Shown here in pieces: positions 29,901 through 57,599 of a stretch of 64,000 bases of DNA. The notes under the pieces are model-generated. The model searched no databases and had not been told where the DNA came from. It saw nothing but the letters and a program-made list of their open reading frames with translations. Origin of the DNA: Naegleria gruberi (taxonomy: Eukaryota). The stretch lies in NCBI GenBank assembly GCA_000004985.1, contig GG738854.1. One strand, written 5' to 3'. A program made the translations under genes and the position numbers. Each line of letters opens with the position of its first letter. Within the stretch, counting starts at the first letter, position 1.

Positions 29901-31403
29901 AATTGGAAGAATATGGTTTACTTTGTAACAAACATTACCAGTGGATTTGATGTTAGCTCAACCGGTACAAATATTGGTATTGTACAATACGGTACTGATT
30001 CTACTCTTCACTTATCTGTCAACGCTGGTACCTCAAAGACAACAGTCAATAACATGGTTTCAAGTATTACTCAAAAGAAGAGTAGTACAGCCACCATTTT
30101 GGGTATTAACACTGCTGTTAATAACATGATTAATTATGGTAGATCTTCTGTGGCTAACAAGCTGTTCATTCATATTACTGATGGTGAGTCAAATGTTCCA
30201 TCCAACTGTTACTCAATGTACTCTCTTTTGGGAGTAACTGATACCGTCTCAAACAGGTTCCCTGGAAAATCGTGTTTAGATTGTGACTGGACTAATTCTA
30301 GTTCTAAGGCTCAACCATGTGCTGAAGCAACAATTAGATCAGCTGAAATCAATTCTTGGAAGGGTTATCGTCAATTAACTATTGGTATAGGTGATGGTGT
30401 AACATCTTCATTCGGTATGAGTCAAATTCAAAAGATGAATTACGATCCTTTAAAGTTCTTCGTAGTTGACTGGAGTGATTTGACCAGTATTTATCAATCA
30501 ATTATCGATGAAGCTTGTAATACTGTAACTACCTCATCTTCTTACACTAAGAGACCAATTTCAGATTTTGATTATACCATTTCATTCACATCAAGAGTTG
30601 TAACTTCAAGAACTGCTTTTGATTCCACTTTTGAAATCACAACCTTTACCTACACATTGAAAGCTCCATCAAGCAGTGCAAGTGGTGCTATTACTCGTTT
30701 CACATTGGCCAACAATATCAATTCTACATATTATAATACCTACAATCCGTCATTCCCTGTTTATGTTGGTACTGATGTTGTTTCCTCACTCTCTGGTTTC
30801 ACTTGGGAATCCTTGCCAAATGGAAAAATTGTTTCTCTCGGGTCAACCAAGACCTTCTCTGTCTCTGTCTATGGAAATGTTCCAGCTGCAAGTATCTCTT
30901 ATGCAATTACTGGCTCATCTTCATATGCAGTTTCAACAATTACAGGACCCGCCACATCTGCCACCTATTCGTTCATTCCACCAACTTCTGAATCAACAAC
31001 ATTGAGAGCTACATACTGTTCTTCCACAAGATGTATGATTCGTGCAGTATTCACTTCTCCAATGCAATATGCTGATGTTGCTAAGGTCTGTAAATTGTGG
31101 AACTCTAAGGCCATTCCTGTAACCATCAAGACAGCCACAGAAAAAACAGAAGTTGCCAATATTTCAGGTGGATACACATTCTTCATTGGCTTGAATAAGG
31201 ACAGTGGATCTTGGAGATGGGTTGATGATAAGTCAGTTGCTTCCTACACTGATTGGAAATCTGGTGAGCCAAACAATAACAGTCCAACCAGTTACAGTGA
31301 TTATTATGTTTGGGCTCAATCAACAACTGCCAACTCTCCTTGGTGGAATGATGTTCCAATGGTTTACACAGTAACAGCTGTTGTTTGTCAATACAAGTTG
31401 TAA
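20931..31403 (+). CDS. Giant secreted adhesin-like protein: signal peptide, ~27 tandem cadherin-like ~95-aa repeats, Cys-rich region, vWA domain, C-terminal C-type lectin domain
   Basis: 3490-aa uninterrupted ORF. Signal peptide MVIVSVVATVIMISTSVG. Repeats carry T-x-H-W…I-D-V-L-x-N-D-x-D-x-(N/D)-G-D-x-L…G-T-V…Y-T-P…F-x-G-x-D-x-F-x-Y-x-V-x-D-G…V-T-V-x-N-x-x-P. vWA: DLIFILDGSGSISATNW…GIVQYGTDS…ITDGESN (about 29866..30510). C-type lectin domain: GYTFFIGLNKDSGSWRWVDDKSVASYTDWKSGEPNN…WNDVPCQ-like (about 31085..31400). Confidence 0.85.
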   Translation: MVIVSVVATVIMISTSVGYNPPEPKPDSLQAYKNTAYTIYPLLNDVDPKGNNLTLVNITQPLYGTAKLLAGNKVQYTSPKYYAGNETFYYTVYNGYGYAESYVKIEVLNRVPEIVTIYKDISKNSQNNIIDVFNYVTESGAQISDVDGDILTIVSITTPNVVGAVATIVDSQFIYYTPPTGYNSADFFNFTITDGNSTVSDTIYINVLNDAPTSNPDDYVIPKNKVASLNLLANDYDVNSDNITIVTAKSGLGSKGVVVFSDDGLSAEYYPSADTKVYSDAFEYTITDGDKESATYVFVRVKNSPPTMESKTITIPKNSENNTISLEYAESDILDTVTITVSKKPTRGTFTLSQLSTSNNVNYLNQQWMVVTQNTYTLIYTPEKSVSYTDSITFKIDDGYDFTYATFTLNIVNLPPVTINDTIVCQKNQQVTLDVVANDYDLNGDVLKLSSSAADWTNSRGGATVSRVDDVQLKYVAKSGFLGEDVASYVVTDSDSTAALTSTGYVIVTVVNTPPVAVDDTITVPKGVLSSLDVLINDSDPNGDAIDFNATSFTSTSGVVSSVNVTSPRNLLNYQAFDVVYQDKITYTIKDIDGATASATITLNVVNTAPVANDDTISVKWNTSIVIPVLANDYDQNPADRSVLTVKTINAVSLSGGVATSFNGGKSILFTPTPGFVGSFVFTYTITDSDLESNAATVTVTVFNSAPVPVNDQATTHWRDTSVTVDVLSNDSDPEGDNLYILSATQPSKGTVSIVTLDNGKDGIKYSISSSQQFVGEETITYTVTDYSMTAVATLKVTVTNQAPVALGDYVKLHWSTSSITIPVLANDTDANNDPITIGTVTPPNGFAGTITKIDSNTKLQFVPTAQSKGVQVVTYVASDGQTTSAGASLTIEVTNADAPSASTISKTVHWSTQTTGTTITLFSSARDGDGDLNQIDLASSPTVAPSHGTVTLSNGDSNTLPNVLYKQSTNYLGSDTFKVQVTDGADNAIYTVNMNIYNNKPTLTAASTTGHWSKFASGYSVDAILLTSAQDADSQDTLSLSSISPMDFITINGNQITFLPTGSFAGTKVYTVNITDGIEISSTSWTVTVQNNDPSAVTTTTTIHWSKGFELIDVLSTITDADSDSIDFSLVSTAATAKGTPSIQVSGSKKLVLWTLPSVSVSMLGSSSFSIQYTDGWKTKEATYTVSVTNSAPVATDKSTTLHWSKYSTGVLIDVLSGATDTNSEDSISLTSSPFSSPSHGTVSVSAGKALYTPTQGYVGSDSFTYSVTDGLETSTKTVSLTITNQKPVANSDSVTIHWNTSFVDINVLGNDVDSDAEDTPIIKTGSVTTPTQGTASIVDATLGVIRYTPSQSVTTGAKTFTYKVTDGAEISTSAATVTVTVTNANSPSASSLSNTMHWRSALVGTSYSLFNSATDPDGDALKINILTNPSGTYSINSDGTSVFFQTASASKGVQTCTYTISDGLSTSSSATITTTVTNSIPTAQDISLKYHWSMIGTGLTIDAISKATDSDAADIANLKLNSVSPSQTYGNVVSMSQDKTKIIYQPTNLQVGNDTFTYSVTDGLDISTSYTVTVEITSTQADPSDQIYSVHWRAVPIDFNVLQNVSSSGSDQPILDGIDTPASHGTVAISQDQKYVTYSMGSVYVGTDKFVLNYHVGLSNNKITVTVNIYNTQPTGTSKTVSTHWRTPININLLTGANDADSLDIPNLSVQLSSTPSKGGLSTVSSGSVTYTPETSTSAFIGTTSFNFKINDGNLLSSNVPVSVTVTNTAPKSSSKSVNVLWSDFVSGKELSVLTLSPADSDDNSDPIRVKSFGSTSKGTVVAKGASGSDANIAIIKGVTGEKYIGAVSFTYVVTDDAANGDVTTTVSVNVYNNKPVAVSDSVTTHWNVNYIDIDVLANDSDPDSNSLSIASVYGSSATTAPIITGGKIRYYPKTSTVGTVDVFKYELSDGAQSSEGTVSVNVTNTKPTTSSFSQTSVWSAVKNGVYFSVVASSSDANGDSLSLASYTSITQAQGALSTVGSGSSAQISYVPTSGFTGAIKQIVFTISDGKETNTGTIDVTVTNNLPTANTGAFTYHWRQALLANNIVLTSRFSDNDGDSVTVSQVTSGGRAGVTLVATNTVKYQLASAWKGSDSFTVQFTDGWGSSSATFPVTVTNSVPVAYDIAVNVNHLSSSSVSIPILSRSDGLKPTDADSADSGALTISSFTQPSIGTVTLSSGTFTFQNVQGNLVNQTFTYTVSDGFETVTKTITVNILDQSPTANSVSKTYHWKTIQSGLDLNFITESSATDPDGDTLSISAFTQPQTGTGTVARKAGSTTNLIYTPPAGTAPLTATFKFTVSDGSISVENTATISLTNTAPVAVSDSVSKLWNNKVFTINPLANDSDGNGDTITISSVDSTSLIRGATLTISSDKLSITYTYTGSGATGTDSFKYTITDGASTSTATVTITFTNQEPVVSSVTQSVKWNSALTVNSLLSSCSDADGDTLSFVSISSGQYGSVVTNDASVGKITYTPAASISYTSKPNSGRWEAVDVLTFKCTDGLAEKSGTLSITIWNTPPTGSNKNGTFTRTYSSPTLSIPESTFKTGASDADSDTISLSAVQMYSSSDSSCSVVLQSDKSVKFTYGQSFVGTQQFYFTLSDGQLTNTYTYTITISNTLTCMDYTLTTTKNSAATQFEDSIKSQWATNFGSESITLSIVSTTNLNSVGTITTVSSKLTYTPTARRSCTGTNCYAVYRVSNTASQTADCNIYVVQPNNAPTATNWDYEFSIRRDGNDARTFDYLTDSAATDSDTSDSLSISISSTGTCSSAGTLSIVSNKISFVRSSSYADQRCTFTLTVSDNDLSNPRTTSVIIGIKPISSPPIAVSDSFTAVYNNKIDILASDLLTNDYDPLGGTFVFAGIDCPDSTYCKNAGIPTILNPSDSANNRIIRVLPKTGSCEAEKVRYKITSVQDSTTAYADINIKYSNCVCSQIFDLIFILDGSGSISATNWKNMVYFVTNITSGFDVSSTGTNIGIVQYGTDSTLHLSVNAGTSKTTVNNMVSSITQKKSSTATILGINTAVNNMINYGRSSVANKLFIHITDGESNVPSNCYSMYSLLGVTDTVSNRFPGKSCLDCDWTNSSSKAQPCAEATIRSAEINSWKGYRQLTIGIGDGVTSSFGMSQIQKMNYDPLKFFVVDWSDLTSIYQSIIDEACNTVTTSSSYTKRPISDFDYTISFTSRVVTSRTAFDSTFEITTFTYTLKAPSSSASGAITRFTLANNINSTYYNTYNPSFPVYVGTDVVSSLSGFTWESLPNGKIVSLGSTKTFSVSVYGNVPAASISYAITGSSSYAVSTITGPATSATYSFIPPTSESTTLRATYCSSTRCMIRAVFTSPMQYADVAKVCKLWNSKAIPVTIKTATEKTEVANISGGYTFFIGLNKDSGSWRWVDDKSVASYTDWKSGEPNNNSPTSYSDYYVWAQSTTANSPWWNDVPMVYTVTAVVCQYKL
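21540..29650 (+). repeat. Intragenic tandem array of diverged ~285-300-bp coding repeats (about 27 copies)
   Basis: Periodic recurrence at the DNA and protein level of the AATGATTATGAT / GTTTTGGCCAATGAT (…VLANDYD…) and ACTGTTACTGTT…AAT…CCA blocks. Copies are diverged rather than identical. Confidence 0.7.
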
Positions 31404-38456: not shown

Positions 38457-41400
38457 ATGTTTCGTTTCTTCTTATTGATAACACTCACACTTGCAGGTTT
38501 CGTGCACCAGCAGATGCATGTCAGTGGAGCCGAATCCAATGTTAAATACATAGTCAAGACCTATTCAACTCTACCAGCCAACACCAATCCAAATGCCATT
38601 CAATTCTATAACCACAAGATGTATGTAACAGGTTCCACTAATAACATCTATGCAGTTTCGAATAATGGAAGTTATACCATCGTAAACCCAATATCCACTT
38701 TGGATGCTCCAACAGGAATACATATTGTGGATGATTGGCTCTATGTTTCTAATAGTGGATCTCAGAAAGTTTCCAAGATGTATTTAAATGATTCTCCAAT
38801 TCAAGTATTTGATGTTTTAACATTTTATCCTAATACGAATCTTTTTGTTTTATCAGAAAGTGAATTGTATGCAGTCGATAAGAATAATAACTTGATTCGA
38901 CACTGGAAGGATAGTTCCTTTGCATTGGTTAGTGTTGGCAGTCTTAATGGACCGAATGGAATTTTTATTCGAAACAATACTATTTACTTTACCGAAAATG
39001 GAGCTCGTACATTGAAAGCAATCGATCAAAATAATCAAATTTCAATTCTTGCTTCAGATATTAATGCGTATTCAGTATATGTCACTGAAGATAATGTCAT
39101 TTTCTTTACAGATTATGTTGGTAGCCTAATTTGGAGAATTAAAGACGGTCAATCTTCGGTAATTGCTGGATATTCAGGAAGTTCTGGTAATGATAATAAG
39201 GAGAATGTCAATGCCACTTCTAGTAGTGTAACTCTTCCTACTGGAATAACATTTGACAACTTGACAGGTATAATTTACTTTGCAGAAATTTCCAATCAAC
39301 GAATTCGTGGATTGATTCCATATTGTGAAACAGCTGGACATTACTTGAATGCACAAAAGTCACGTTGTGTGTCAAGTGTCTGTTCAGGAGTTGACAGCAC
39401 CAACTCTTCTGTTTGTTCATCACGTGGTATTTGTAATCAAACCAATCAATGCTCATGCCAATCAAAGTATTTTGGTGATAATTGTGAATTGACAAGTTGT
39501 AATGGAATTCAAAGTAATTCAAATTTGGTTTGTTCTGGAAATGGAACTTGTCAAGATTACAATTTTTGTAATTGTAAGAATGGTTTGCTTGGAAAGAATT
39601 GTCAAATTGCAACTTGCTTTGGAATTTTATCCAATCAAACAAGTGCTTGCAGTAGTGGAAGAGGTATTTGTCAAGGAATGGATTTTTGTAATTGTTCGAA
39701 AGGTTTCGTCGGCCAAGATTGTGCTGAACATACATGTGGAGGCATTTCTTATAATAACACAGCAACTTGTTCTGGAAATGGAACGTGTGTTGGTGTAGAT
39801 AGCTGTTCTTGCAAGGAGGGTTTTTATGGAGATAACTGTCAAATGCCAAAATGTTTTTCAATCATGTCAAATGACACGAGTGTTTGCTCTGGTAATGGAG
39901 AATGTATTGGAAAAGATAAGTGCAATTGTAAGAGTGATTATTCTGGATATCGTTGTGAAATAACTTCATGTTTCGGTATCCCATCAAACTATTCGAATGT
40001 TTGTTCTGGAAATGGAAATTGCACTTTCAAAGATTTCTGTAATTGCACATTTGGATATTTAGGTAAACAATGTGAAGTTGCTCCTTGTTATGGAATTCCA
40101 GCAAATTATTCGAATGTCTGTTCTGGAAATGGAAATTGTAATGGAAAAGATAATTGTAATTGTCAACCAGGATTTTCAGGAAATCAATGTGAAATTCCAA
40201 CTTGTTTTGGAATTTTGGGAAACAGTTCAATGGCGTGCTCTGGCAATGGAGAATGTCAAAATTTAGATCAATGCAATTGTAATTCAAATTATACTGGATC
40301 AAAATGTGATGTTCCTATATGTTTCGGTATTGCAAAAAGTTCTAGTTTAGTTTGCTCAGCTATTGGAAATTGTACGAAACCTGATTTTTGTGAATGTCCA
40401 TCAAATTATGAAGGATACGAATGTCAATTTCGCATCACTCCAAGAAAATTACAAACTAATGGCATTCCAACTGCAATTGTCCAAGGAATTTCCACAACTT
40501 TTGATTTGAAAGTTATTGGAATGGAATTGAGAACATTTAGTGATCTAGTCAACTCGAGAAAGGATTGTGGAGTGACATGTTCACTTTCTTTATCATATAG
40601 TTGGTATTTGAAGGATAGAGACAATGGTTCACCGTTAATTATCCAACATTCGAATACCGCATTTGGAAATACGAAATATCTTTCGTCTTCAACTTTCCAG
40701 TTGACTTTCTCACCTGTTATTTCAATTGGTTTTACTAGAATTTTAAGTAGAAATGTAACTTTGACATTTGAAATTGTATCTGGTGGTGAAAATGTTTCAA
40801 TTTCTCAAGATATCTTGATTATTTCACCTCTGTTGAGAACTAAAGGTTTAGGTAAGATTCAACCAAGTTCTGGAATCGCACTTGGTTCCTTATTTTCAAT
40901 AGAGGAAGATAAGAATCTTTGGACAGTCTCGGAAGAAAGTAAGAAATATCTTGAACCTTTTCAATTTGCCTTTGGTTTCTTTTACAATCAAGAATTAGTA
41001 AGAATCTCTGATTTTTCCATAAATGGGATGGATTTATTGTTCCTTCCATATTTGAACGCAAATAATAGTAATGGACAAAGTGAAAATTTGGATATTTATG
41101 TTATCTGTAAGGATGCTTTAAAGAATGAATATTCTTCTCTTATTGGTACTGTTTCAATTAGTCCAAATTTGGTAAACACAGTTGAAGAATTGAAAAATCA
41201 AATTGATGATATTGCACGCATTATTCCTTATGACTCTTCATGGAAGTTTAGAGATCTGAAAGAATACAGCTCTGTTATTATCGAGTCTGTCAGCAAGTTG
41301 AGTATTGACATTAATAATCCATCAAATACTTTAACAACTCTTCGACAATTGACAAGCCAAAGTGTTGCTTCTTCTTACCAAGTTGGTTCTATCATTAATG

Positions 41401-43697
41401 ATAAGATTGATTCTTACTTATCTTCTTTAAATCAAGTTTATAAGAAGGAAAAGGAAACTAATGGATATGTTTCTAATAGATTGACAAATTCTGATTTGAA
41501 GAATACTTTATCAAGTGCTAGTAACTTGCTTTTCTTTGGATTTTCCAATATCTCAAGCCTTTGTACTCAATTATCATCCGTTTTATTGTATCAACAGTCA
41601 ACCAAGATAGTTTCCAACTCAATTGACTATTCGAAATATTCAACTGAATTAATTAACATTACAGTTTCGTCATTTGTCAAGAGCAATTCCAGTATCAAGG
41701 CACTACAATTCTCTGACATTTTTCTAGATTCAGATTACATTCTTAACAAGTATAACGGTTACAATAAGGAAATTGGTCTTTCCTTAATTTCTTACAATTC
41801 GAAACTATATAATTCAAGCCAAACTCAAATAACCAACTCCAAAGATTTCACTCTTTATATGGGAGGAGAGGCTCTTCCTCTATCAGAATTAGTTCAACCT
41901 ATCTACATTTCATTTTCTGTTCAAAATTTGACTTCTTTGAATCAATCCCTTGTCAAGTGTCAATTTTGGAATGAAACAACAGAAAAATGGGATAATCAAG
42001 GATGTTCCTTGCATGTATTCAATCAAGCTACTGGCGAAGTGACCTGTAAATGCACTCACACTACTCTATTCGCTGCCTTTGTTGAACAATCATTCAATGA
42101 AACTCTGGTTGACCAAGTAGTATTGAAAGAGTTATCGAATTTGTACATTGCTCAAATTTCCTTTGGAGTTCTCTTCCTAATGCTTTCTAGTACATTACTA
42201 GTTGGTTTGATTATCATGAGAAAATCTCAACCATTAGCAAGTCGTTTCGTCACACCATTTATAGGAATGATTGCCTTAATAGTGGAATGTATCTTGTTGC
42301 TTATAACACAGAGAAGCATTTTATTGTCAGAACAGAATGGATGGTCTGAATCCACAGCTATACAAGTGGAAAGTTCAGATTTGGCAGCCAATATTGTTTC
42401 GAATATTATCGCCATTATTGTAAACACTTTGACTTTGACAGCAATGTTTGCTTATTTGTATCAAATTTCCAGATATCACATTCTGAAATATTTCTATCAC
42501 AAGCTTTCCATCAAGTTTTCCCTCAATTCTGGTCAAAAAGAAAGTGAACGAAACTTGTCCCTAATTAGACAGCTCTTGTCAACCAAAGCCATGATCACAA
42601 TCATCACTACTTTTGTAATTTTGAACCTATTATACTGGACTCTCTGGGTTATCCTTGTGAGAACTTCAGCAATTACAGGAGTTGCCTATTCTTACATTGT
42701 TTCAATTTCATTCACTGTGATTCTTCTTTGTTTAGGATTCATGATTTGTGGTTTGATTGGATTAGATGTTTTCATGACTCTTATGAATGAGAGAAAGGAA
42801 AAGTCAATTGTCAATAATGGTAATCAAGAAAACGCAAGTCAGTCCAGTAATTCATTGCAAAAGTTTGATAAGGAGGCCACCAAGAAAATAGCCAAGATTA
42901 GTTTATGGAAAGCGTATAATTGGTTTATTAAGATTGACAATCCTCTCTATTTTAGAGGTGAAATGAGTCTTTTCGTGTTGTGTTTCGTATTTTTGAACAT
43001 TTCACAAATTATTGGAATTTCAGGATTGAGTTATAAGAAAGGAGAAAAAATGTCAAGAGTTAATGATTCCATTTCTTTGGTATTCGAAGTCTTGTACTTG
43101 TTCACTTACTTGTTGGTCTTTGGAGGTTATGCATTGTTAGTCAGATTAGTTCAGTTTATTCAACAAAAGAAGAAACAATCATTATCCAAAAATAGAGATT
43201 CTTCTGAGATGGATGAATTAAGCCAAATCTTGAATAATGTGGAAGGATTGAGATTATTGGAGCAATTTAGTGAAAAAGAATATTCCTTAGAGAATTTGCA
43301 TTTATTCTTGGAAATGAAACACAACCAACAATTAATTAAGACATCTGACAATATGGATGAACTTTATGTGTTCATGGATAACGTTTGGTCAACTTACATT
43401 CAAACAGATTCCATTAAGGAAGTTAATATTCCATCCGATTGTAAACGAAATTTCTCTAAAGTGAAAAATTCCCTATTCGAAATTGTCAAGCAGCAAGAAC
43501 CTGAGTTGAAAAATCAAAAACCAATTCCAGAAGAATTGGCAACCGAATTACAACAAGTATTTTCTGTATTGTCTGATCAAATTACTTTCAATTTGAGTGA
43601 TACCTTTTCTAGATTCTCCTTGACTGATGAATATTCCAATTATTTGAATGTATTGGAAACTCAACAAGAGTTATTGAACAAATCCAAGCTAGTTTAG
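38457..43697 (+). CDS. Adhesion-GPCR-like receptor fused to an RGS domain: signal peptide, NHL-type beta-propeller, ~12 EGF-like repeats, GPS motif, 7TM, C-terminal RGS domain
   Basis: 1746-aa uninterrupted ORF. Signal peptide MFRFFLLITLTLAGFVHQ. NHL-like blades (IYFTENGARTLKAID, IFFTDYVGSLIWRI, IYFAEISNQRIRGL). Tenascin-type EGF repeats (CSGNGxCxxxxxCxCxxGFxGxxC) over about 39360..40420. GPS motif CQFWNETTEKWDNQGCSLHVFNQATGEVTCKCTHTTLFAAF (about 41958..42090). Seven hydrophobic helices over about 42130..43000. RGS core LEQFSEKEYSLENLHLFLEM…IKEVNIPSDCKRNF…DTFSRFSLTDEY (about 43200..43620). Confidence 0.8.
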   Translation: MFRFFLLITLTLAGFVHQQMHVSGAESNVKYIVKTYSTLPANTNPNAIQFYNHKMYVTGSTNNIYAVSNNGSYTIVNPISTLDAPTGIHIVDDWLYVSNSGSQKVSKMYLNDSPIQVFDVLTFYPNTNLFVLSESELYAVDKNNNLIRHWKDSSFALVSVGSLNGPNGIFIRNNTIYFTENGARTLKAIDQNNQISILASDINAYSVYVTEDNVIFFTDYVGSLIWRIKDGQSSVIAGYSGSSGNDNKENVNATSSSVTLPTGITFDNLTGIIYFAEISNQRIRGLIPYCETAGHYLNAQKSRCVSSVCSGVDSTNSSVCSSRGICNQTNQCSCQSKYFGDNCELTSCNGIQSNSNLVCSGNGTCQDYNFCNCKNGLLGKNCQIATCFGILSNQTSACSSGRGICQGMDFCNCSKGFVGQDCAEHTCGGISYNNTATCSGNGTCVGVDSCSCKEGFYGDNCQMPKCFSIMSNDTSVCSGNGECIGKDKCNCKSDYSGYRCEITSCFGIPSNYSNVCSGNGNCTFKDFCNCTFGYLGKQCEVAPCYGIPANYSNVCSGNGNCNGKDNCNCQPGFSGNQCEIPTCFGILGNSSMACSGNGECQNLDQCNCNSNYTGSKCDVPICFGIAKSSSLVCSAIGNCTKPDFCECPSNYEGYECQFRITPRKLQTNGIPTAIVQGISTTFDLKVIGMELRTFSDLVNSRKDCGVTCSLSLSYSWYLKDRDNGSPLIIQHSNTAFGNTKYLSSSTFQLTFSPVISIGFTRILSRNVTLTFEIVSGGENVSISQDILIISPLLRTKGLGKIQPSSGIALGSLFSIEEDKNLWTVSEESKKYLEPFQFAFGFFYNQELVRISDFSINGMDLLFLPYLNANNSNGQSENLDIYVICKDALKNEYSSLIGTVSISPNLVNTVEELKNQIDDIARIIPYDSSWKFRDLKEYSSVIIESVSKLSIDINNPSNTLTTLRQLTSQSVASSYQVGSIINDKIDSYLSSLNQVYKKEKETNGYVSNRLTNSDLKNTLSSASNLLFFGFSNISSLCTQLSSVLLYQQSTKIVSNSIDYSKYSTELINITVSSFVKSNSSIKALQFSDIFLDSDYILNKYNGYNKEIGLSLISYNSKLYNSSQTQITNSKDFTLYMGGEALPLSELVQPIYISFSVQNLTSLNQSLVKCQFWNETTEKWDNQGCSLHVFNQATGEVTCKCTHTTLFAAFVEQSFNETLVDQVVLKELSNLYIAQISFGVLFLMLSSTLLVGLIIMRKSQPLASRFVTPFIGMIALIVECILLLITQRSILLSEQNGWSESTAIQVESSDLAANIVSNIIAIIVNTLTLTAMFAYLYQISRYHILKYFYHKLSIKFSLNSGQKESERNLSLIRQLLSTKAMITIITTFVILNLLYWTLWVILVRTSAITGVAYSYIVSISFTVILLCLGFMICGLIGLDVFMTLMNERKEKSIVNNGNQENASQSSNSLQKFDKEATKKIAKISLWKAYNWFIKIDNPLYFRGEMSLFVLCFVFLNISQIIGISGLSYKKGEKMSRVNDSISLVFEVLYLFTYLLVFGGYALLVRLVQFIQQKKKQSLSKNRDSSEMDELSQILNNVEGLRLLEQFSEKEYSLENLHLFLEMKHNQQLIKTSDNMDELYVFMDNVWSTYIQTDSIKEVNIPSDCKRNFSKVKNSLFEIVKQQEPELKNQKPIPEELATELQQVFSVLSDQITFNLSDTFSRFSLTDEYSNYLNVLETQQELLNKSKLV

Positions 43698-46109: not shown

Positions 46110-47786
46110 ATGCAAGAAAGGAGTGTTGTAGGTAACCCTTACCAACAACCTCAATCACCTAATAATAATCCTCCAAAAAGACTTGAACGACAACGATCGA
46201 CTACATCGAACATGGCACATAGAATACCAAGTCGTTCCTCACTTGGTGGTAATCGTTCTGGACAAGAAGCAAATAATAGTAATATTAAATTAAAATCAGT
46301 AGAGAATGACCTCATCTCTCGGAGGGGTAGTAAACAATTAAATAGACCTAAAAGCACCATATCTAAGGTTTCTGTAGGAAGTGAAAGAATGAGAGAAGGT
46401 GCTATACAACGAATCGAATCTACAGTATTTCTCTTTATTAATGCTTTAAAACTAGAAAAACCAATTCCTAGGTTTATTTACTTTTTACTTAACTGGATAG
46501 TTATTTGGCAAACTCTTAGTCTGGGAGTATCAATAGATTTTAATTGGGGCGAGTATGGTCGTTATTTATACCATGCTGTGGCTATTCCCCGAACTTTTGG
46601 ATTCCAATTTCTGCCCTATGATGCTTTCATTGGATTGGCTATTGCTGTGTACATATTGGAAATAATAGCTCTATTCACTATTTATCTGACATATAGGTCG
46701 TTCATTAATGGAAGTAAATATTGGTCAAAAATCAAAACAACAGCTAGGATAACATTTGCCCTAATGATTATTATAAGTTTACCTTCAACGTATGGAATGA
46801 GTTCCTCATTTTGGGATTGCGATTATTCTCAAACTGAAACAATTTCTGGAAAGGTTACATTTACCTTGAAAAGATTTCCAACCATTGAGTGTTGGGGAGC
46901 TACCAATGGAGCAATGGCTGCCTTATCAATAATAGCCATGGTTGTACAGATATTTTTCACAACGTTTGCTGTATTTATATTCTGTGATACTAGTATATCA
47001 AGTAAGAGCATGTTTGCAATGGAAAATAGCCTCTTTCTCGCTGTGATTGTCTCCACAAATCAAATCTTCCTTATTGTTTCCCAAGTGACACCATCTATGG
47101 TTTATTATTTAAGACCAGTATACTTTATAGTTGTTTCATTAATTTCAGTAGGAGTTCTTATTTGGCAGACACCTTTTTTGTTCAGATCGATGAATTCAGT
47201 TTATGCAGGGATAACAACAGGTAGAATAGGTGTTGCGGCTGGGTCGCTTGTAGCCACATTAATCAATAAGGAAGATGAGTGGCAAGTTGGGCTAGGAATA
47301 ACATTTGGCCCAGTTGCAGGATTTATAATTTTCTTTTTTATTGGTTTTATTGGTGTGGAAATATATACTAGGGTTTTAAAATCAAGAGGAAGAAAGTTAT
47401 TGGAAGGACTGATGGAGTCAAGAAACATTGCCATCCTCATAGACAAAGACTATTACTACATTACACAATTCATTAGACATTCCACTAAGGCAAATGAGAA
47501 GGAAAAGACTTTAGGAAAAAGCTTCTCCAGAATGGTAGTCAATTACAAAGATGCCATTCCATCCGAGACCCTGCTTGCCATAGCTTTATTTATGAAATAT
47601 GTATTAGAAGACAATTCGACAACCTTTATTCTCATGCTATTGAAAAAGGCTGAAAAACAACGAAATGACTTTTTGACACGATTCAAGCTTTTCCTTAGAT
47701 TCAGAGAAATTGAGAGAGCTACTTCTACAGGAAGAAACAATTTTGAATTGGACCACATTTTGGAGGGAATTCAAAAGAAAAGCTGA
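46110..47786 (+). CDS. Multi-TM N-terminal region, either the first exon of the downstream PAS-cyclase gene or a separate polytopic membrane protein
   Basis: 558-aa ORF with about 8 hydrophobic helices after a Ser/Arg-rich N-terminus. Its 3' end overlaps the next ORF (frame B, called from 47710) in a different frame. A candidate 130-nt intron (GTATTA at 47601 … TCTACAG at 47730) would fuse the two in frame. A frameshift or two separate genes cannot be excluded. Confidence 0.45.
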   Translation: MQERSVVGNPYQQPQSPNNNPPKRLERQRSTTSNMAHRIPSRSSLGGNRSGQEANNSNIKLKSVENDLISRRGSKQLNRPKSTISKVSVGSERMREGAIQRIESTVFLFINALKLEKPIPRFIYFLLNWIVIWQTLSLGVSIDFNWGEYGRYLYHAVAIPRTFGFQFLPYDAFIGLAIAVYILEIIALFTIYLTYRSFINGSKYWSKIKTTARITFALMIIISLPSTYGMSSSFWDCDYSQTETISGKVTFTLKRFPTIECWGATNGAMAALSIIAMVVQIFFTTFAVFIFCDTSISSKSMFAMENSLFLAVIVSTNQIFLIVSQVTPSMVYYLRPVYFIVVSLISVGVLIWQTPFLFRSMNSVYAGITTGRIGVAAGSLVATLINKEDEWQVGLGITFGPVAGFIIFFFIGFIGVEIYTRVLKSRGRKLLEGLMESRNIAILIDKDYYYITQFIRHSTKANEKEKTLGKSFSRMVVNYKDAIPSETLLAIALFMKYVLEDNSTTFILMLLKKAEKQRNDFLTRFKLFLRFREIERATSTGRNNFELDHILEGIQKKS

Positions 47787-50700
47787 CTTGTTGAAACATT
47801 TGCAAGTTAGATTTTGGAAGAATGTTGCCTCAGGTCAAGATCTCTACTCTGTTACGAAACAAATGGAAGAAACTTCTACAGAATGCTATCAAACGTTTGG
47901 TAATTTAATGGTCAATCATCACAATAACAAGACTGTCCTCCGAGCATATGCATCATATTTGGAAGAGTTTGCATTTGAACCCCTATTTGCCGAGGAACTA
48001 TACAATGAGGCAAACATTTTAGAAGAAGAAGAGGTTCTCAAATCAAAACCTAAATCTAAAAAGCCTATTACAGCTCCAAAAACAAATCTTGCAAACTTGG
48101 ACGGAAAACTTGTTACCAATCTGGATGATGATGATGCTATCCTAGAATCAGCTAGTCAGCAGGGAGAAATGGATCCAGGTGAGCGTTTAAAGGAACAATA
48201 CAGAACTGCTATCAATAAGAGAGAAGAAAATAATTTCATTCTCATTTTCCTTGTCTCACTATGCGTTGTTTCAATTATTTACATGATCATTACTTTGGCT
48301 ATGGATTTAGCATTCACAAATAAGAACACAAGTATTGTAGAAGTTATTAAGGAAGCTTGTATATTAGGACCTATTCCATACGCTCTTCTTTCTGACATGA
48401 GACGAATTAATTTACTGGATGATGAGAGCTTGATTCAAAATTCAACAAGATTTTTCAATGATTACCAAGTAAGGCTCTCTTCTTTCAAATCAGTTTTGGA
48501 AACTTTTATTCACTCCTCAGAGGGATCATTATTTTCAACAAAAATGAAAGAAGACTTCACAAATAATGACAAATCATACAATGTAAGTGTGTTAATGTTT
48601 TTATTATTTACACCAACTTTATAGGTGGCTATAACCAAACTTGAGAATGTTACAGGAATTGAATTCTTCACCAAAAATGCCTCTATTTCTGCTATTGCAA
48701 ACGCTTTTTCATCTCTTACCAATGAAATTTCCTTATTCAACCTTACAACATATTCAGAAACCTATAGGAATTTCTACTTTTCCATGATGTTCGTTAACAG
48801 ATTGTCATTTACAAATGCTTTTGAACTCTTTTACTCTTCAATGATTTCTGGTGAACTTGTGGATTTACAATACGATACAAATGTGTTTGTGATTGTCTTT
48901 GCTACTCTTACTGCTGCCTATTTTATTTATATCCTTGTTTATCTTGGTATGCTGATCTCACATGTTGGTCATAGAAAGCACATCCTTAAACTGTTTTCAA
49001 ATATTCCAAAACAAGAAGCCTCAAAAATTAGCCATGAATTGGAACTTAAAACTGACAACACCATCATTCCACAAAAGAATTACTTTATTACACCAGTCAG
49101 AGGAATTATTATTTTGATTTCAATAGCTTTATCCATTACTACCATTGCCTCCGCTCTTATCTTATATGAGGGTCTAACTCAAATGAATAGTTCAATTCTT
49201 GTAATGAGAAAGTTGGAATACTCTTCAAAAGCTCTCATGACTTCTCAAAGAATATTATTCAAGATACAAGAATTATTATTAGAGGATGCATCAGCACTAG
49301 GTGTAAACAAGACTCAATTCTTCCATGAAATTGATGCTCATATTATGGATTTTGAACAGGGTTGGACTGCTTTAAGGTATGGTACTGCAGAAGACTCTTT
49401 CAGTTCCCTCTCTGGAGTGACGGGTATAATTGATGAGTTATTACAATCATCTAATTGCTCTTTGTCGAGTAATTCTAGTGTTGCAAGCGAATGTACTGGG
49501 CTTGACTCAATTGTAGAGGACTTTGACGGCTCAGTTTTGAAGTTAAACCAAAATGCATTCAGGGAAACATTTTCTAGAGATGTATTACTTGATGAGCTAC
49601 AGGCAGTTTATGATCAGAGTGTAGAGTTGTTCAATAGTTTTTCCATTATTATGAATTCTTATGTTTCAAACTTTTCCAATCAGCAAAAAGTTATTGGAGC
49701 TGTATCTACCTCATTGGCTTCCTTTTTCCTTTTGATTACAGTATTTTTGTTATATAGAGCAATTAGCAGTTTTGGAAGTGAAAATCACCAACTGAGAATC
49801 ATGCTAAACCATTTGCCAGTGGACATTCTCGATAGTGATGGTGATATTCGTTCATATATCATGTATTATACCCTTGGAAACTCAAAGAAAAAGTCTGACA
49901 AGAATGGACAACAAGTGAGTAATGAAAAAGCTATTCTTGAGGCAGCTGTTGCTGGAACAGCAGTTTGTTCTTCATATGGATCAATTGATATTTTCAACGA
50001 ATCTGCTCAAAAGATGTTTGGGTACAGATTGGATGAAGTGATTGGTGTGTCTTTGGCTCAAATGTTTACTAATGAAAGTCAGCCATCACTTCATAGTGTG
50101 CTTTCCAATATGGCAATTTCATCTAAAACTTATGGTGAAAACTTGACATTACAAGGTCAAAGAAAGAATAAGACAACCTTCCCAGTTCAACTCAGAATTT
50201 CAGTATCAGTAATTGAGGGAAGAAATATTATATCTTGTTTTATGACAGATTTAACAACAGATAGAGAGCATGATCTCATGTTGGCAGAAGAAAAGAAGAA
50301 GAGTGAATCATTACTTCTTAACATTCTTCCAGAGTCTATTGCACAACGACTTTCAAATGGAGAAACATTTATTGCTGACAGTCACGAGGATGTCACTTGT
50401 TTGTTCAGTGACTTGGTAGGATTTGTTGAGGTTTCTGTACACATGTCCGCAACTGAGCTTGTGCAAACTTTGAATATTATTATTAATGGTTTTGATTCTC
50501 TTGTGCCAATTTATCAAATAGAAAAAATCAAGACTATTAGTGAGAAATACTTTTGTGCTGGAGGTCTTAAGGTCAGGTCTGATGAAGGAGACCATCCTGA
50601 AGAGAGAACTCTTAAATTTGCTATGGATATGTTTGGAGTTGTCTACAATTACAACACAGATTTTCACAGAAACTTTACTGTTCGTATTGGTATGCATTGT

Positions 50701-52000
50701 GGACCATTGGTAGCCGGTGTTTGTGGTACTTTGAAGTTTGCTTATGACTTGTGGGGAGATGCTGTAAATGTAAGTTATTGTTTTCACTTGTATTTTGCTA
50801 ACTACTAAATAGACTGCTTCAAGAATGGAGTCTACAGGTAAATCTGGAAGAATTCAAATCACAGAAAAGTTACACAGCAAATTATGTGGAAAGTATCAAT
50901 TTGAAAAGTCTAGTGTTGTGGCAAAAGGAAAAGGAGAAATGACCACATATCTATTGAGCACTGAATACTATCAAAACACTTCTCCAGATGCTATGCCACT
51001 AGACAGTACCCTGAAAATTAGAGCAAGAGCTATGGGACATCCTGTTGGTGATGAATTCTCTGAACATCATTCCGAGAGTGGTCAACAAATGGAAGGAACA
51101 GAAGATTTTAAAAATATTAAACCCTCCACACCACCTCCGACCAGTCAAACCTTGAATCCAGTATTAGCCACCATAACTAAAGTTTCCTCATTATCTTCTC
51201 TAACTTCTGCTGCAGAAAAGGAGGAAAAGGAATTAGTTGCTAATGCCAATAACAACAATAATAACAGTACTCCCTCCCTAAACGTTGATCCAGTAGCTGG
51301 TTCAAATAATTCAACAACAACAACTGGACTTGATTCAATTCTTAGTAGATCTAGAAGTTTGTCTGTTAAGGTACAGCAACCAGTATTGCTTGATTTAAAG
51401 AATACAGAGAATAATAACTCTGGCAATCTTAGAAGATTCTCTCTTCCTCGATCAGGATCACCAATTTCTCCAGTCGGTTCTGAAATTAGAAATCCATTTA
51501 GTCCTGCCAAACAAACCAGCAACAGTAACGTGACAAGCAATGTGACCATACCAAACAATACTACAAACGAAGCTACGGAAACAACTGAAGTATCTACAAC
51601 TCCACCGCCTTCATCTTCTGTTTTAACAAATCAACATATTGAACTTCCACTATTACCAACAACTCAATCCCTTAGTAGTAATTCTCAAAGTAGAAATTCA
51701 AGTAGAAGAGCTAGCGTGAGCTCAGAGTGCTCATCTTCATCTTCAGGCACTCTTGAGATTATGAATAAGCCAGTGTTGAATGGGAATATTAGAAGATCAA
51801 TAGAGAGGCAAAAGATTTATGACCAAGAAACACACAGATATAGCGAACAAGATTCAGATGATGAGAATAAGAGTGTATTAGAAGTTCACAAGTTAAGGCG
51901 AGCATCTCAACCTTATGTAAATATGGACCATCATCACAGACATGAAAGTAATAGTTCATCCTCTGAAAACCATGCACTAAAGGAAGAAGAAAAAGAGTAA
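47710..52000 (+). CDS. Receptor-type adenylyl/guanylyl cyclase (class III) with TM segments, PAS domain and canonical catalytic domain; multi-exon
   Basis: Exons about (46110..47600?) + 47731..48582 + 48625..50769 + 50813..52000. Intron 48583..48624 (GTAAGT…TTTATAG) joins …DKSYN|VAITKLENV…. Intron 50770..50812 (GTAAGT…AAATAG) joins …LWGDAVN|TASRMESTGKSGRIQITE…, restoring the cyclase WGDxVNxASRMES motif. PAS: AILEAAVAGTAVCSSYGSIDIFNESAQKMFGYRLDEVIG. Cyclase core: VTCLFSDLVGFVEV…KIKTISEKYFCAGGL…RIGMHCGPLVAGVCG… The tail is Ser/Thr/Asn-rich. Confidence 0.75.

Positions 52001-55801: not shown

Positions 55802-57599
<1,798 letters not shown>

What the first reader, a model, noticed from the sequence alone, without database searches (positions are those of the whole stretch)
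38457..43697. Adhesion-type 7TM receptor carrying its own RGS domain (NHL-EGFx12-GPS-7TM-RGS)
One uninterrupted 1746-aa ORF combines a beta-propeller and about 12 tenascin-like EGF repeats, a GPS autoproteolysis motif (…CKCTHT|TLFAAF), a 7TM core and a cytoplasmic RGS domain (LENLHLFLEM…). A GPCR fused to its own GTPase-accelerating module (as in plant AtRGS1) is an unusual architecture, which predicts self-limiting or ligand-relieved constitutive G-protein regulation.
Basis: partly seen in the sequence, partly recalled or inferred. Interest (0 to 1): 0.7.

Follow-up and report, generated by a model that had tools for sequence, protein, structure and literature searches.

The report
Naegleria GPS-7TM receptor with RGS tail
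This is a real Naegleria gruberi gene for a large cell-surface receptor whose cytoplasmic tail is a G-protein "off-switch" (RGS) domain, but the gene is already in RefSeq and this receptor family was described in Naegleria fowleri in 2022, so it is a sound but not a new observation.

Summary
The 1746-aa ORF at 38457..43697 (+) is real. Residues 20-1746 are 100% identical to Naegleria gruberi XP_002680163.1 (NAEGRDRAFT_47020, "predicted protein").

Confirmed parts:
- a signal-peptide-like N-terminus
- a divergent NHL-type propeller
- nine EGF repeats, not twelve
- a GAIN-like domain with a Pfam-significant GPS motif (H1201-T1202|T1203)
- seven TM helices
- a Pfam-significant cytoplasmic RGS domain that keeps the canonical G-alpha contact residues

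The fusion is not an annotation artefact. About 96 protein clusters have it or fragments of it. Every named one is from Naegleria or Willaertia.

The architecture is not new. Bosch, Jeck and Siderovski (JBC 2022) described 28 N. fowleri 7TM-RGS proteins. Several of these carry GPS motifs and EGF/lectin ectodomains, and RGS domains from three of them showed GAP activity on Naegleria G-alpha subunits.

"Adhesion-type" holds for the ectodomain only. The 7TM core matches no Pfam 7TM family. In fold comparison it is a generic GPCR fold, closest to class C, and no adhesion receptor appears in the top 60.

The most likely function is a receptor-regulated GAP, as with AtRGS1. Two small new points came out: an almost invariant H-T-T GPS triad across the family, and a RefSeq gene model that lacks the signal peptide.

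The parts
38457..43697 (+). Complete single-exon CDS (1746 codons plus stop). It is the Naegleria gruberi gene NAEGRDRAFT_47020.
   Evidence: ORF listed. aa 20-1746 are 1727/1727 identical to P0004 (XP_002680163.1 / EFC47419.1 / UniProt D2V6B6). An in-frame stop lies immediately upstream of the ATG.
38457..38531 (+). Signal-peptide-like N-terminus (aa 1-25, MFRFFLLITLTLAGFVHQQMHVSGA). The first 19 aa are missing from the RefSeq model, which starts at Met20.
   Evidence: Sequence read directly. P0004 starts at MHVSGAES. Paralogue P0003 also begins with a hydrophobic leader. No signal-peptide predictor was run, so this is an inference.
38532..39323 (+). Divergent NHL-type (six-blade-like) beta-propeller, aa 26-289.
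   Evidence: Pfam Arylesterase 1.6e-5 when scanned alone, with no direct NHL call. PDB phmmer: PknD-type NHL fragment 8pkr_A 2.3e-4, NHLRC2 0.05, LRP2 YWTD 0.07. phmmer matches the N-termini of P0005, P0011 and P0067, which carry Pfam NHL/TEN_NHL calls in their N-terminal parts.
39381..40436 (+). Nine tandem teneurin/tenascin-like EGF repeats of 39-40 aa (aa 309-660).
   Evidence: Pfam EGF_Teneurin 5.8e-29 with 9 stretches. Six-cysteine pattern found 9 times. Repeats are 33-67% identical as protein and 44-75% as DNA, so the duplications are old.
40437..41180 (+). Unassigned beta-rich ectodomain region (aa 661-908).
   Evidence: No Pfam family. Homologous regions occur in paralogues P0006 (2.3e-34), P0005 (3.2e-29), P0015 (7.3e-14) and P0029 (1.5e-8). 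REJ is called in 5 of 23 other family members but not in three of these four, P0005, P0006 and P0015 (P0029 was not scanned). Beta strands appear in the low-confidence model.
41181..42077 (+). GAIN-like domain (aa 909-1207): six predicted helices (aa 909-1046), then a beta-sandwich (aa about 1070-1207) that ends in the GPS.
   Evidence: The AF2 secondary-structure pattern matches the GAIN description of six helices plus a beta-sandwich (PMC3321182). The Foldseek top hit is the latrophilin-1 GAIN/HormR structure 4dlq_A (E 4.2e-5), followed by the Gpr126 ectodomain 6v55_A (3.1e-3). The model is low confidence here (pLDDT 40-69).
41955..42074 (+). GPS motif (aa 1167-1206) with four Cys and two Trp in canonical positions.
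   Evidence: Pfam GPS 5.5e-7 on the whole protein and 6e-8 on the segment. C1168, W1178, G1182, C1183, C1197, C1199, H1201, T1203 and F1205 are invariant in 23 diverse family members.
42057..42065 (+). Putative autoproteolysis triad H1201-T1202|T1203. It fits the canonical H-X-S/T, with Thr where metazoan receptors usually have Leu.
   Evidence: Sequence. The H-X-S/T definition is in PMC13062082. The triad is H-T-T in 87 and H-A-T in 6 GPS motifs found in the hit set.
42063..42083 (+). Stachel-like tethered peptide T-L-F-A-A-F-V (aa 1203-1209), followed by a linker of about 20 aa to TM1.
   Evidence: The family consensus T-T-x-F-x-x-F is invariant or nearly so in 38 sequences. Its role as a tethered agonist is inferred by analogy with adhesion GPCRs (PMC13062082).
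42141..43154 (+). Seven-transmembrane core (aa 1229-1566) with family-specific motifs: QPxxSR (ICL1), QxxRY (end of TM3), DxPLYFRxEM (before TM6), VFGG (TM7).
43218..43628 (+). Cytoplasmic RGS domain (aa 1588-1724) with conserved residues E1608, S1610, E1612, N1613, E1655, N1657, D1715, T1716, R1719.
   Evidence: Pfam RGS 3.3e-8, covering 2-112 of 117 profile positions. PDB phmmer finds RGS5, 18, 16 and 4. Foldseek gives TM-scores of 0.65-0.80 to RGS1, 4, 8 and 16. These residues are invariant across 23 members. Motifs are shared with N. fowleri and N. lovaniensis homologues.

Best explanation
The ORF is the Naegleria gruberi gene NAEGRDRAFT_47020. It is one member of a large heterolobosean (Naegleria/Willaertia) family of receptor-type GTPase-accelerating proteins.

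The protein is inserted N-terminus out. It presents an ectodomain of about 1200 aa: an NHL-type propeller, nine EGF repeats, a beta-rich region and a GAIN-like domain with a GPS. This is followed by a GPCR-fold seven-helix bundle and a cytoplasmic canonical RGS domain.

The RGS domain, held at the membrane, accelerates GTP hydrolysis on Naegleria G-alpha subunits. Some of these subunits exchange nucleotide spontaneously ("self-activating"). The receptor therefore keeps G-alpha off by default. Engagement of the ectodomain by a ligand, a surface or force changes how well the RGS reaches G-alpha-GTP. This is the AtRGS1 logic.

The GAIN/GPS module, with its conserved His base, Thr nucleophile and T-x-F-x-x-F peptide, probably self-cleaves or at least acts as a tethered switch on the helix bundle.

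Shown here: identity, architecture, topology, fold, and family-wide conservation of the catalytic and contact residues. Shown in the literature for homologues: GAP activity and self-activating G-alpha subunits. Inferred: ligand control, autoproteolysis and Stachel action.
For: **Identity.** 1727/1727 aa match N. gruberi XP_002680163.1.

**Domains.** Pfam GPS and RGS score above their curated cutoffs, and there are nine EGF repeats.

**Topology.** Signal-peptide-like N-terminus. 64 of 69 Cys and 31 of 39 N-x-S/T sequons lie before the GPS. Seven TM helices. K+R 26 inside against 6 outside.

**GAIN-like fold.** Six helices plus a beta-sandwich. The Foldseek top hit is the latrophilin GAIN structure 4dlq_A at 4.2e-5.

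**RGS fold and residues.**

**The fusion is conserved.**
- The exhaustive profile search gave 96 clusters at E<=1e-30, most spanning GAIN to RGS.
- 55 of the hit sequences cover the whole 7TM region.
- RGS is called in 22 of 23 sampled members.
- GPS His/Thr and RGS contact residues are invariant at 19-43% overall identity.

**Experimental precedent in the same family.**
- P0007 (N. fowleri FDP41_005437, E 1.4e-264) carries the peptides encoded by the Nf 7TM RGS1 primers.
- P0015 carries the C-terminal peptide of the Nf 7TM RGS2/3 reverse primer. P0009 and P0025 carry that of Nf 7TM RGS4.
Against: - Nothing has been measured on this protein. Its RGS domain is only 31-37% identical to those of the closest family members.
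- No evidence shows that ectodomain events change GAP output in any Naegleria 7TM-RGS. The authors state this is undetermined.
- An H-X-S/T triad is not sufficient for cleavage (PMC13062082), and Thr at P-1 is atypical.
- The GAIN model is low confidence.
- The 7TM core is not class B2-like, so transferring the Stachel mechanism from adhesion GPCRs is an analogy.
- No G-alpha gene lies in the window, so there is no partner by context.
Confidence: 0.7

Rival explanations
1. It is a true G-protein-activating receptor (a GEF) with a built-in RGS that shortens its own signal. The helix bundle would catalyse nucleotide exchange on the Naegleria G-alpha subunits that are not self-activating, and the tethered RGS would give fast shut-off.
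For: - An Arg at the cytoplasmic end of TM3 is nearly invariant (QxxRY).
- A conserved Stachel-like peptide is present.
- N. fowleri has G-alpha subunits with different nucleotide-cycling kinetics, only two of which (G-alpha5 and G-alpha7) were found to be self-activating. Only one recognisable canonical GPCR candidate was found, so other exchange factors may be needed (PMC9283941).
Against: - No 7TM-RGS protein has been shown to act as a GEF. The characterised precedent, AtRGS1, is described as a GAP receptor.
- There is no sequence relation to any G-protein-coupling receptor family.
- A permanently tethered GAP next to the exchange site would oppose activation.
Confidence: 0.15
2. The GAIN/GPS module is only a structural stalk. 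It is neither cleaved nor a switch. The protein acts mainly as an adhesion or scaffold molecule, and its RGS domain simply localises or sequesters G-alpha at contact sites.
For: - Many metazoan adhesion GPCRs with a canonical triad are not cleaved (PMC13062082).
- P-1 is Thr or Ala in the family's GPS motifs instead of the usual Leu.
- The ectodomain is built from adhesion-type modules, NHL and EGF.
Against: - The His base, Thr nucleophile, +3 Phe, both disulfide Cys pairs and a Trp are invariant across clusters that are otherwise 19-43% identical. A passive stalk would be hard to reconcile with that.
- The RGS keeps the residues needed for catalysis-type contacts, including the Asn of EVNIPS.
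Confidence: 0.1
3. The fusion is a gene-model or reading artefact: two neighbouring genes (receptor and RGS protein) that merely share a frame.
For: No transcript data were available here. Several public Naegleria models of this family are visibly wrong at their ends. P0002 starts inside the Stachel, P0001 is cut by a contig end, and P0004 lacks the signal peptide.
Against: - The frame is uninterrupted from TM7 into the RGS, with a 21-aa linker.
- The same junction is present in dozens of homologues from four species and from metagenomes.
- RefSeq models it as one protein.
- N. fowleri members were cloned and are transcribed.
Confidence: 0.02

Closest known systems
Naegleria fowleri 7TM RGS proteins (Nf 7TM RGS1-4 and 24 others; Bosch, Jeck and Siderovski, J Biol Chem 2022, PMC9283941)
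   Same: Same protein family by sequence. The profile hits N. fowleri FDP41_005437 at 1.4e-264. That protein carries the Nf 7TM RGS1 primer-encoded peptides. The layout is the same: EGF/lectin-type ectodomain, GPS motif, seven TM helices, C-terminal RGS. The RGS motifs are shared.
   Different: Different species, and a paralogue rather than a clear orthologue. Identity to the nearest non-gruberi member is 40-42% over the C-terminal GPS-7TM-RGS part (aa 1100-1746), and the RGS domain is 31-35% identical to the P0007 and P0015 homologues. This member has an NHL-type propeller plus nine EGF repeats. It has not been tested for GAP activity.
Arabidopsis AtRGS1 (plant 7TM-RGS receptor GAP)
   Same: Seven TM helices followed by a cytoplasmic RGS domain. 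It is expected to act on self-activating G-alpha subunits. This is the working model adopted here.
   Different: By my recollection AtRGS1 has no large ectodomain, GAIN domain or GPS. Here about 1200 aa lie outside the cell. Homology between the two TM cores was not tested, because no AtRGS1 sequence or model was available to these tools.
Metazoan adhesion GPCRs (class B2, e.g. latrophilin/ADGRL1, GPR56, GPR126)
   Same: A modular adhesion-type ectodomain is followed by a GAIN-like domain whose GPS lies directly before TM1. It has an H-X-S/T triad and a T-x-F-x-x-hydrophobic peptide after it.
GPR158/GPR179 with RGS7-Gbeta5 (animal class C orphan receptors that recruit an RGS in trans)
   Different: In those receptors the RGS is a separate protein bound non-covalently, whereas here it is fused. 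No sequence similarity was detected. The ectodomains are unrelated.
Polycystin-1 / PKDREJ family (REJ-GAIN/GPS-multi-TM)
   Same: It is the other known membrane-protein family with a GAIN/GPS directly before the first TM helix. Five of 23 sampled family members carry a strong Pfam REJ domain (1.9e-36).
   Different: This protein has no REJ, PLAT or polycystin channel domain call. It has seven TM helices, whereas polycystin-1 has eleven by my recollection.

Membership tests
Heterolobosean GPS-7TM-RGS receptors (N. fowleri '7TM RGS' family of Bosch et al. 2022) | Significant full-length sequence homology to N. fowleri members | tested here: met
   The profile of this protein plus three homologues hits N. 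fowleri P0007/P0151 (FDP41_005437) at 1.4e-264 over GAIN to RGS. P0007 contains NKDMSI and ends NVVYLC, the peptides encoded by the Nf 7TM RGS1 primers.
Heterolobosean GPS-7TM-RGS receptors (N. fowleri '7TM RGS' family of Bosch et al. 2022) | Seven transmembrane helices followed by a C-terminal RGS domain | tested here: met
   Seven hydrophobic segments. AF2 model with seven TM helices, pLDDT 85.6. Pfam RGS above cutoff at aa 1588-1724.
Heterolobosean GPS-7TM-RGS receptors (N. fowleri '7TM RGS' family of Bosch et al. 2022) | GPS motif and EGF-type ectodomain (the subset described as adhesion-like) | tested here: met
   Pfam GPS 30.5 bits against a cutoff of 22.5. Nine EGF repeats.
Heterolobosean GPS-7TM-RGS receptors (N. 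fowleri '7TM RGS' family of Bosch et al. 2022) | GAP activity of the RGS domain on Naegleria G-alpha subunits | not testable with these tools
   Shown only for Nf 7TM RGS2, 3 and 4. Here only the conservation of contact residues can be shown.
Adhesion GPCR (class B2) | GAIN domain with its GPS immediately before TM1 | tested here: inconclusive
   The GPS motif is met and lies 26 aa before TM1. The GAIN fold is supported by the secondary-structure pattern and a Foldseek top hit to 4dlq_A (4.2e-5), but the model has pLDDT 40-69 in this region.
Adhesion GPCR (class B2) | Catalytic H-X-S/T triad at the GPS | tested here: met
   H1201-T1202-T1203. The motif definition is in PMC13062082. H and T are invariant in the family.
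Adhesion GPCR (class B2) | Secretin/adhesion-type 7TM core (Pfam 7tm_2) | tested here: not met
Adhesion GPCR (class B2) | Autoproteolysis and tethered-agonist activation of G proteins | not testable with these tools
   This needs biochemistry. The motif alone is not sufficient.
AtRGS1-type plant 7TM-RGS | 7TM plus cytoplasmic C-terminal RGS | tested here: met
AtRGS1-type plant 7TM-RGS | Homology of the 7TM core to AtRGS1 | not tested
   No AtRGS1 sequence or model was reachable. All named hits of the exhaustive search were Naegleria or Willaertia.
Canonical RGS domain (PF00615) | Profile match above the curated threshold and an RGS helical-bundle fold | tested here: met
   30.3-34.4 bits against a cutoff of 23.9. 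Foldseek TM-scores of 0.65-0.80 to RGS1, 4, 8 and 16.
Canonical RGS domain (PF00615) | G-alpha switch-contact residues (RGS4 S85/E87/N88, N128, D163/R167; positions recalled from the RGS4-Gi-alpha1 structure 1AGR) | tested here: met
   YS1610-L-E1612-N1613, E-V-N1657-I-P-S and D1715-T-F-S-R1719-F. They align with RGS5 EFSEEN and KEVNI and are invariant in the family. The RGS4 residue numbers come from memory.
Class C GPCR | 7tm_3 core with a Venus-flytrap ectodomain | tested here: not met
Polycystin-1/PKDREJ | REJ domain, PLAT domain and an 11-TM/channel region | tested here: not met
   None is called on this protein. It has seven TM helices. REJ is present only in other family members.

The most novel reading that the evidence does not exclude
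The GAIN/GPS-Stachel module is a portable switch that is not tied to the class B 7TM core. In Heterolobosea it sits on a GPCR-fold bundle that is not class B-like. By fold, that bundle is nearest to class C. The bundle's output is a fused GAP.

On this reading, self-cleavage at a lineage-specific H-T-T site, followed by a ligand- or force-driven Stachel movement, would switch G-protein deactivation rather than activation. That would be a third class of GAIN-bearing membrane protein, after adhesion GPCRs and polycystins, with tethered-agonist logic of inverted sign.
Probability: 0.3. Interest if true: 0.6.

Novelty: new member of a known kind. Interest (0 to 1): 0.3.

Why it matters
Practically, little changes. 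The gene is already deposited and its family is published. The finding should not be carried forward as a new architecture.

Its residual value is as a clean, intron-free, non-pathogen member of a family that could answer an open question raised by the N. fowleri work: whether extracellular events control the GAP activity of 7TM-RGS receptors.

Three points make specific, cheap experiments possible:
- The GPS catalytic residues and the T-x-F-x-x-F peptide are near-invariant across about 90 diverged clusters.
- The TM core is not adhesion-class.
- The candidate mutations and peptide are defined: H1201A, T1203A, a Stachel peptide, and N1657A.

N. fowleri homologues have been proposed as drug targets, so the non-pathogenic N. 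gruberi protein could serve as a surrogate.

Tried and rejected
1. **Exact-sequence look-ups.** Look-ups of the 1746-aa ORF, of RPN1 and later of P0004 in the contig index all returned nothing. The RefSeq model starts at Met20, which explains the first miss.

2. **Word-indexed homologue search.** It missed the identical N. gruberi protein and found only 2-3 relatives. The exhaustive representative search was what identified the gene and the family.

3. **N. fowleri primer search.** I tested whether the window is N. fowleri by searching for the published Nf 7TM RGS2/3 primers. There were no matches.

4. **Synteny with N. lovaniensis.** P0001 sits at a contig start and its neighbours differ from those in the window, so orthology is unresolved.

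5. **Organism identification through PDB matches.** Matches of the neighbouring thioredoxin-reductase-like and RPN1 proteins were uninformative.

6. **REJ assignment for aa 661-908.** Rejected. REJ is called in other family members but not in P0005, P0006 or P0015, three of the four paralogues that share this region.

7. **First structure model.** The aa 690-1746 model with a 4-sequence alignment was low confidence (pLDDT 51). I used it only for secondary structure and for local Foldseek hits.

9. **Class B2 membership of the TM core.** Rejected on sequence and fold.

Full report
**1. The observation**

An in-frame stop lies immediately upstream of the ATG, and non-coding sequence flanks it on both sides.

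Pfam on the translation gives these calls:
- EGF_Teneurin 5.8e-29, with nine stretches.
- EGF_TEN 3e-25 and EGF_2 3.1e-22.
- GPS 5.5e-7 (30.5 bits, curated cutoff 22.5) at aa 1167-1206.
- RGS 5.9e-7 (30.3 bits, cutoff 23.9).

Scanned as separate pieces, GPS improves to 6e-8. RGS improves to 3.3e-8 and covers 2-112 of 117 profile positions at aa 1588-1724.

Three details needed correction.
- A cysteine-pattern scan finds nine 39-40-aa repeats (aa 309-660), not about twelve.
- Pfam does not call NHL on this protein.
- No Pfam 7TM family matches the membrane core, even at E<=10.

**2. What organism and gene this is**

The word-indexed protein search pointed to Naegleria: an N. lovaniensis partial protein at 40% identity and an N. 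gruberi fragment at 37%.

The exhaustive profile search then returned P0004. It is 1727/1727 identical to aa 20-1746 of the window ORF. P0004 is Naegleria gruberi XP_002680163.1 / EFC47419.1 / UniProt D2V6B6, "predicted protein NAEGRDRAFT_47020". The window is therefore N. gruberi nuclear DNA.

The neighbours fit a eukaryotic chromosome. They include:
- proteasome subunit RPN1
- a Frag1/DRAM-family protein
- a PAS-adenylate/guanylate cyclase
- a GH5 cellulase
- F-box/LRR proteins

The public model starts at Met20. It therefore lacks the hydrophobic leader MFRFFLLITLTLAGFVHQQ that the window ORF supplies. Met1 is the first ATG after a stop, and paralogue P0003 also begins with such a leader. 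Met1 is thus the more likely start. This is an inference, since no signal-peptide predictor was available.

**3. Anatomy**

*Ectodomain, aa 1 to about 1203.* It holds 64 of the protein's 69 cysteines and 31 of its 39 N-x-S/T sequons.

*Propeller, aa 26-289.*
- Scanned alone, this region scores Arylesterase (a six-bladed propeller family) at 1.6e-5.
- Its best solved-structure relatives are a PknD-type NHL propeller fragment (2.3e-4), NHLRC2 (0.05) and an LRP2 YWTD propeller (0.07).
- phmmer links it to the N-termini of paralogues P0005, P0011 and P0067.
- Pfam calls NHL/TEN_NHL strongly in the N-terminal parts of those paralogues, up to 6.6e-80.

*Between the EGF repeats and the GAIN-like domain, aa 661-908.*
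- This region is beta-rich and unassigned.
- It is shared with P0005, P0006, P0015 and P0029.
- REJ is called in other family members but not in P0005, P0006 or P0015. I leave the region unnamed.

*GAIN-like domain, aa 909-1207.*
- A low-confidence AF2 model (pLDDT 51) predicts six helices followed by a beta-sandwich ending in the GPS.
- That is the published GAIN pattern of six helices plus a 13-strand sandwich (PMC3321182).
- The Foldseek top hit of that model is the latrophilin-1 GAIN/HormR crystal structure (4dlq_A, 4.2e-5). The Gpr126 ectodomain follows at 3.1e-3.

*GPS.*
- The GPS is canonical in its four Cys and two Trp.
- It ends C-K-C-T-H1201-T1202|T1203-L-F-A-A-F.
- This fits the H-X-S/T triad definition (PMC13062082).

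*Membrane core.*
- Seven hydrophobic segments lie at aa 1229-1568.
- With a 38-sequence family alignment, AF2 gives a confident seven-helix bundle (pLDDT 85.6, pTM 0.85).
- Lys+Arg count is 26 in the predicted cytoplasmic loops and tail, against 6 outside.

*RGS domain.*
- It aligns with RGS5, 18, 16 and 4.
- It superposes on RGS1, 4, 8 and 16 structures with TM-scores of 0.65-0.80.
- It keeps YS-L-E-N, E-V-N-I-P-S and D-T-F-S-R-F. By my recollection of the RGS4-Gi-alpha1 complex, these correspond to the switch-contact residues S85/E87/N88, N128 and D163/R167.

**4. The family**

*Size and extent.*
- The exhaustive search found 1508 cluster representatives at E<=1e-3, 240 at <=1e-10 and 96 at <=1e-30.
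- Most of the top hits are 1200-2600 aa and match from the GAIN region through the RGS.
- 55 of the hit sequences cover the whole 7TM region.

*Taxonomy.*
- Every member that carries a name is from N. gruberi, N. fowleri, N. lovaniensis or Willaertia magna.
- The rest are unnamed metagenome proteins.

*Domain census of 23 diverse full-length members.*
- RGS in 22, EGF_2 in 17 and GPS in 13 at E<=1e-3.
- Variable ectodomain modules: REJ in 5, NHL in 4, RCC1-like in 4, and malectin, NCD3G and ephrin-receptor-like in one each.
- No Pfam 7TM family in any member.

*Conservation.* These 23 sequences are only 19-43% identical overall. The invariant columns are almost exactly the functional ones:
- GPS: C, W, G, C, C, C, H, T, F.
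- RGS: E1608, E1612, N1613, E1655, N1657, N1712, D1715, T1716, R1719.

*GPS triad.* A motif scan shows H-T-T in 87 GPS motifs and H-A-T in 6. Thr (or Ala) at P-1 is thus a lineage signature, where metazoan receptors usually have Leu. The peptide after the scissile bond is T-x-F-x-x-F throughout.

This conservation argues that both the GPS chemistry and the G-alpha interface are under selection. It also rules out an accidental fusion.

**5. Is the membrane core "adhesion-type"?**

At sequence level it is not.
- The core alone has no Pfam hit.
- No family member hits 7tm_2 or any other 7TM model.
- A 38-sequence profile of the Stachel-7TM region finds no GPCR among all PDB chain sequences at E<=10.

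At fold level it is clearly a GPCR bundle, but not preferentially class B2.
- Foldseek's top 50 are almost all GPCRs (taste T2R, class A, PTH1R, GABA-B). The best E-value is only 0.017, and no adhesion receptor is among them.
- For other classes it gives 17.9 and below for class A, 17.1 for Frizzled and 16.1-16.5 for class B1. No adhesion GPCR is in the top 60.
- The class C lead is modest and has no sequence support, so I do not file the protein under class C.

The resemblance to adhesion GPCRs is therefore confined to the GAIN/GPS ectodomain. GAIN is already known to sit in front of two different membrane cores, adhesion GPCRs and polycystins. It is also found in Dictyostelium and Tetrahymena (PMC3321182).

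**6. What is already known**

Bosch, Jeck and Siderovski (J Biol Chem 2022, PMC9283941) reported the following:
- N. fowleri expresses 28 seven-transmembrane proteins with C-terminal RGS domains.
- Several have EGF-like repeats and lectin domains.
- RGS domains of Nf 7TM RGS2, 3 and 4 accelerate GTP hydrolysis on Nf G-alpha subunits. These include the self-activating G-alpha5 and G-alpha7, and the interface is canonical.

Those proteins belong to the family found here.
- P0007/P0151 (N. fowleri FDP41_005437) contains NKDMSI and ends NVVYLC, the peptides encoded by the Nf 7TM RGS1 primers.
- N. lovaniensis P0015 ends KQVNLL, the peptide of the Nf 7TM RGS2/3 reverse primer.
- P0009 and P0025 end VVYGI, the peptide of the Nf 7TM RGS4 reverse primer.
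- The window protein's RGS domain is 31-37% identical to the RGS domains of its closest family members, these four among them, and shares the contact motifs.

More broadly, 7TM-RGS architectures are documented in plants, Trichomonas, many bikonts, chytrids, filastereans and ichthyosporeans (PMC3971589).

The authors also state that whether extracellular cues alter GAP activity in these receptors "remains to be determined".

**7. Mechanism**

The best-supported reading is a receptor-regulated GAP of the AtRGS1 type.
- The membrane-tethered RGS keeps Naegleria G-alpha subunits in the GDP state. Some of these subunits load GTP spontaneously.
- Events at the large adhesion-type ectodomain modulate that activity.
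- The GAIN/GPS module, with its conserved catalytic triad and tethered peptide, is the likely coupling device to the helix bundle.

Status of each step:
- Shown here: gene identity, architecture, topology, folds and family-wide conservation.
- Shown elsewhere for homologues: GAP activity and self-activating G-alpha subunits.
- Inferred: autoproteolysis, Stachel action, ligand or force control, and the sign of the effect.

Rivals:
This is possible because the core is a genuine GPCR fold and N. fowleri has few recognisable GPCRs.
- A non-cleaving structural stalk with a scaffold role.
- A gene-model artefact, which the conserved junction in dozens of homologues effectively excludes.

**8. Novelty and score**

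The gene is deposited, and the kind is published with biochemistry in a sister species. This is an uncharacterised member of a known family.

Small additions from this work:
- The H-T-T/H-A-T GPS signature and its near-invariance.
- The evidence that the TM core is not class B2 and is structurally nearest to class C.
- The NHL assignment by transitive homology.
- The corrected start codon.

Interest is about 0.3. The most novel reading still open is that a GAIN-Stachel switch here controls a GAP on a non-class-B bundle. That would be of moderate-to-good interest and is directly testable with the mutations and peptide listed in the next steps.

Noticed in passing
window 20931-31403 (+): An uninterrupted 3490-aa ORF is built from bacterial-type repeats: 22 Big_9 stretches (6.1e-234), 16-18 bacterial cadherin-like stretches (Cadherin_4/5) and a VWA domain. 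It looks like a giant adhesin made of domains usually seen in bacteria, yet it sits in a Naegleria chromosome 7 kb upstream of the receptor gene.
   Followed up: partly
window 38457-38513: The public model of this gene (XP_002680163.1, 1727 aa) starts at Met20 and omits the 19-aa hydrophobic leader. Met1 at 38457 is the first ATG after an in-frame stop, and it restores a signal-peptide-like N-terminus.
   Followed up: yes
P0002 (N. gruberi, 523 aa) and P0001 (N. lovaniensis, L001:41-2682): Two homologues have truncated public models. P0002 begins MFSTFIEH, inside the Stachel right after the GPS cleavage position, so its whole ectodomain is probably unannotated. P0001 is cut by the start of contig PYSW02000051.1.
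   Followed up: partly
family members P0004-P0100: The GPS triad is H-T-T in 87 and H-A-T in 6 of the GPS motifs found in the hit set, always within CxCxH(T/A)TxFxxF. Thr or Ala at P-1 replaces the Leu typical of metazoan adhesion GPCRs and polycystins. It is not known whether this variant still self-cleaves.
   Followed up: partly
family members in alignment A4: The ectodomains of the family are highly modular. REJ occurs in 5 of 23 members (1.9e-36, a polycystin-like REJ-GPS arrangement) and RCC1-like propellers in 4. Malectin, NCD3G (a class C GPCR hallmark, 4.1e-37) and ephrin-receptor-like repeats each occur in one member.
   Followed up: no
metagenome proteins P0112, P0121: Shorter relatives of 750-817 aa match only TM6-TM7 plus the RGS of the profile. 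Their source names them "pimeloyl-ACP methyl ester carboxylesterase", which suggests 7TM-RGS variants with an alpha/beta-hydrolase N-terminal domain. Their organisms are unknown.
   Followed up: no
window 47710-52000 (+): A TPR (TmcB-like) + PAS + adenylate/guanylate cyclase gene is split over three consecutive ORFs (47710-48624, 48625-50808, 50825-52000). The cyclase domain is divided between the last two. This implies short introns or frame changes. Such cyclases are a greatly expanded family in Naegleria.
   Followed up: no
window 15516-17085 (+): A protein kinase domain is split between two ORFs (15516-16475 and 16519-17085). A short intron probably lies near 16475-16519.
   Followed up: no
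window 39238-39861 (-): A 207-aa antisense ORF lies wholly inside the EGF-repeat region of the receptor gene. It has a TTG start and an odd composition, and it is most likely a by-product of the repeat sequence rather than a gene.
   Followed up: no
window 56370-57599 (-): This ORF is the N-terminal part of an animal-type large thioredoxin reductase (1.2e-79 to mouse TrxR2). It stops at about residue 400 of the roughly 500-aa enzyme, so the rest must lie in another exon.
   Followed up: no
tool behaviour: The word-indexed homologue search never returned P0004, although that protein is 100% identical to the query region. With a 38-sequence 7TM alignment it returned nothing. Negative results from that tool on hydrophobic or low-complexity queries should not be trusted.
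   Followed up: yes
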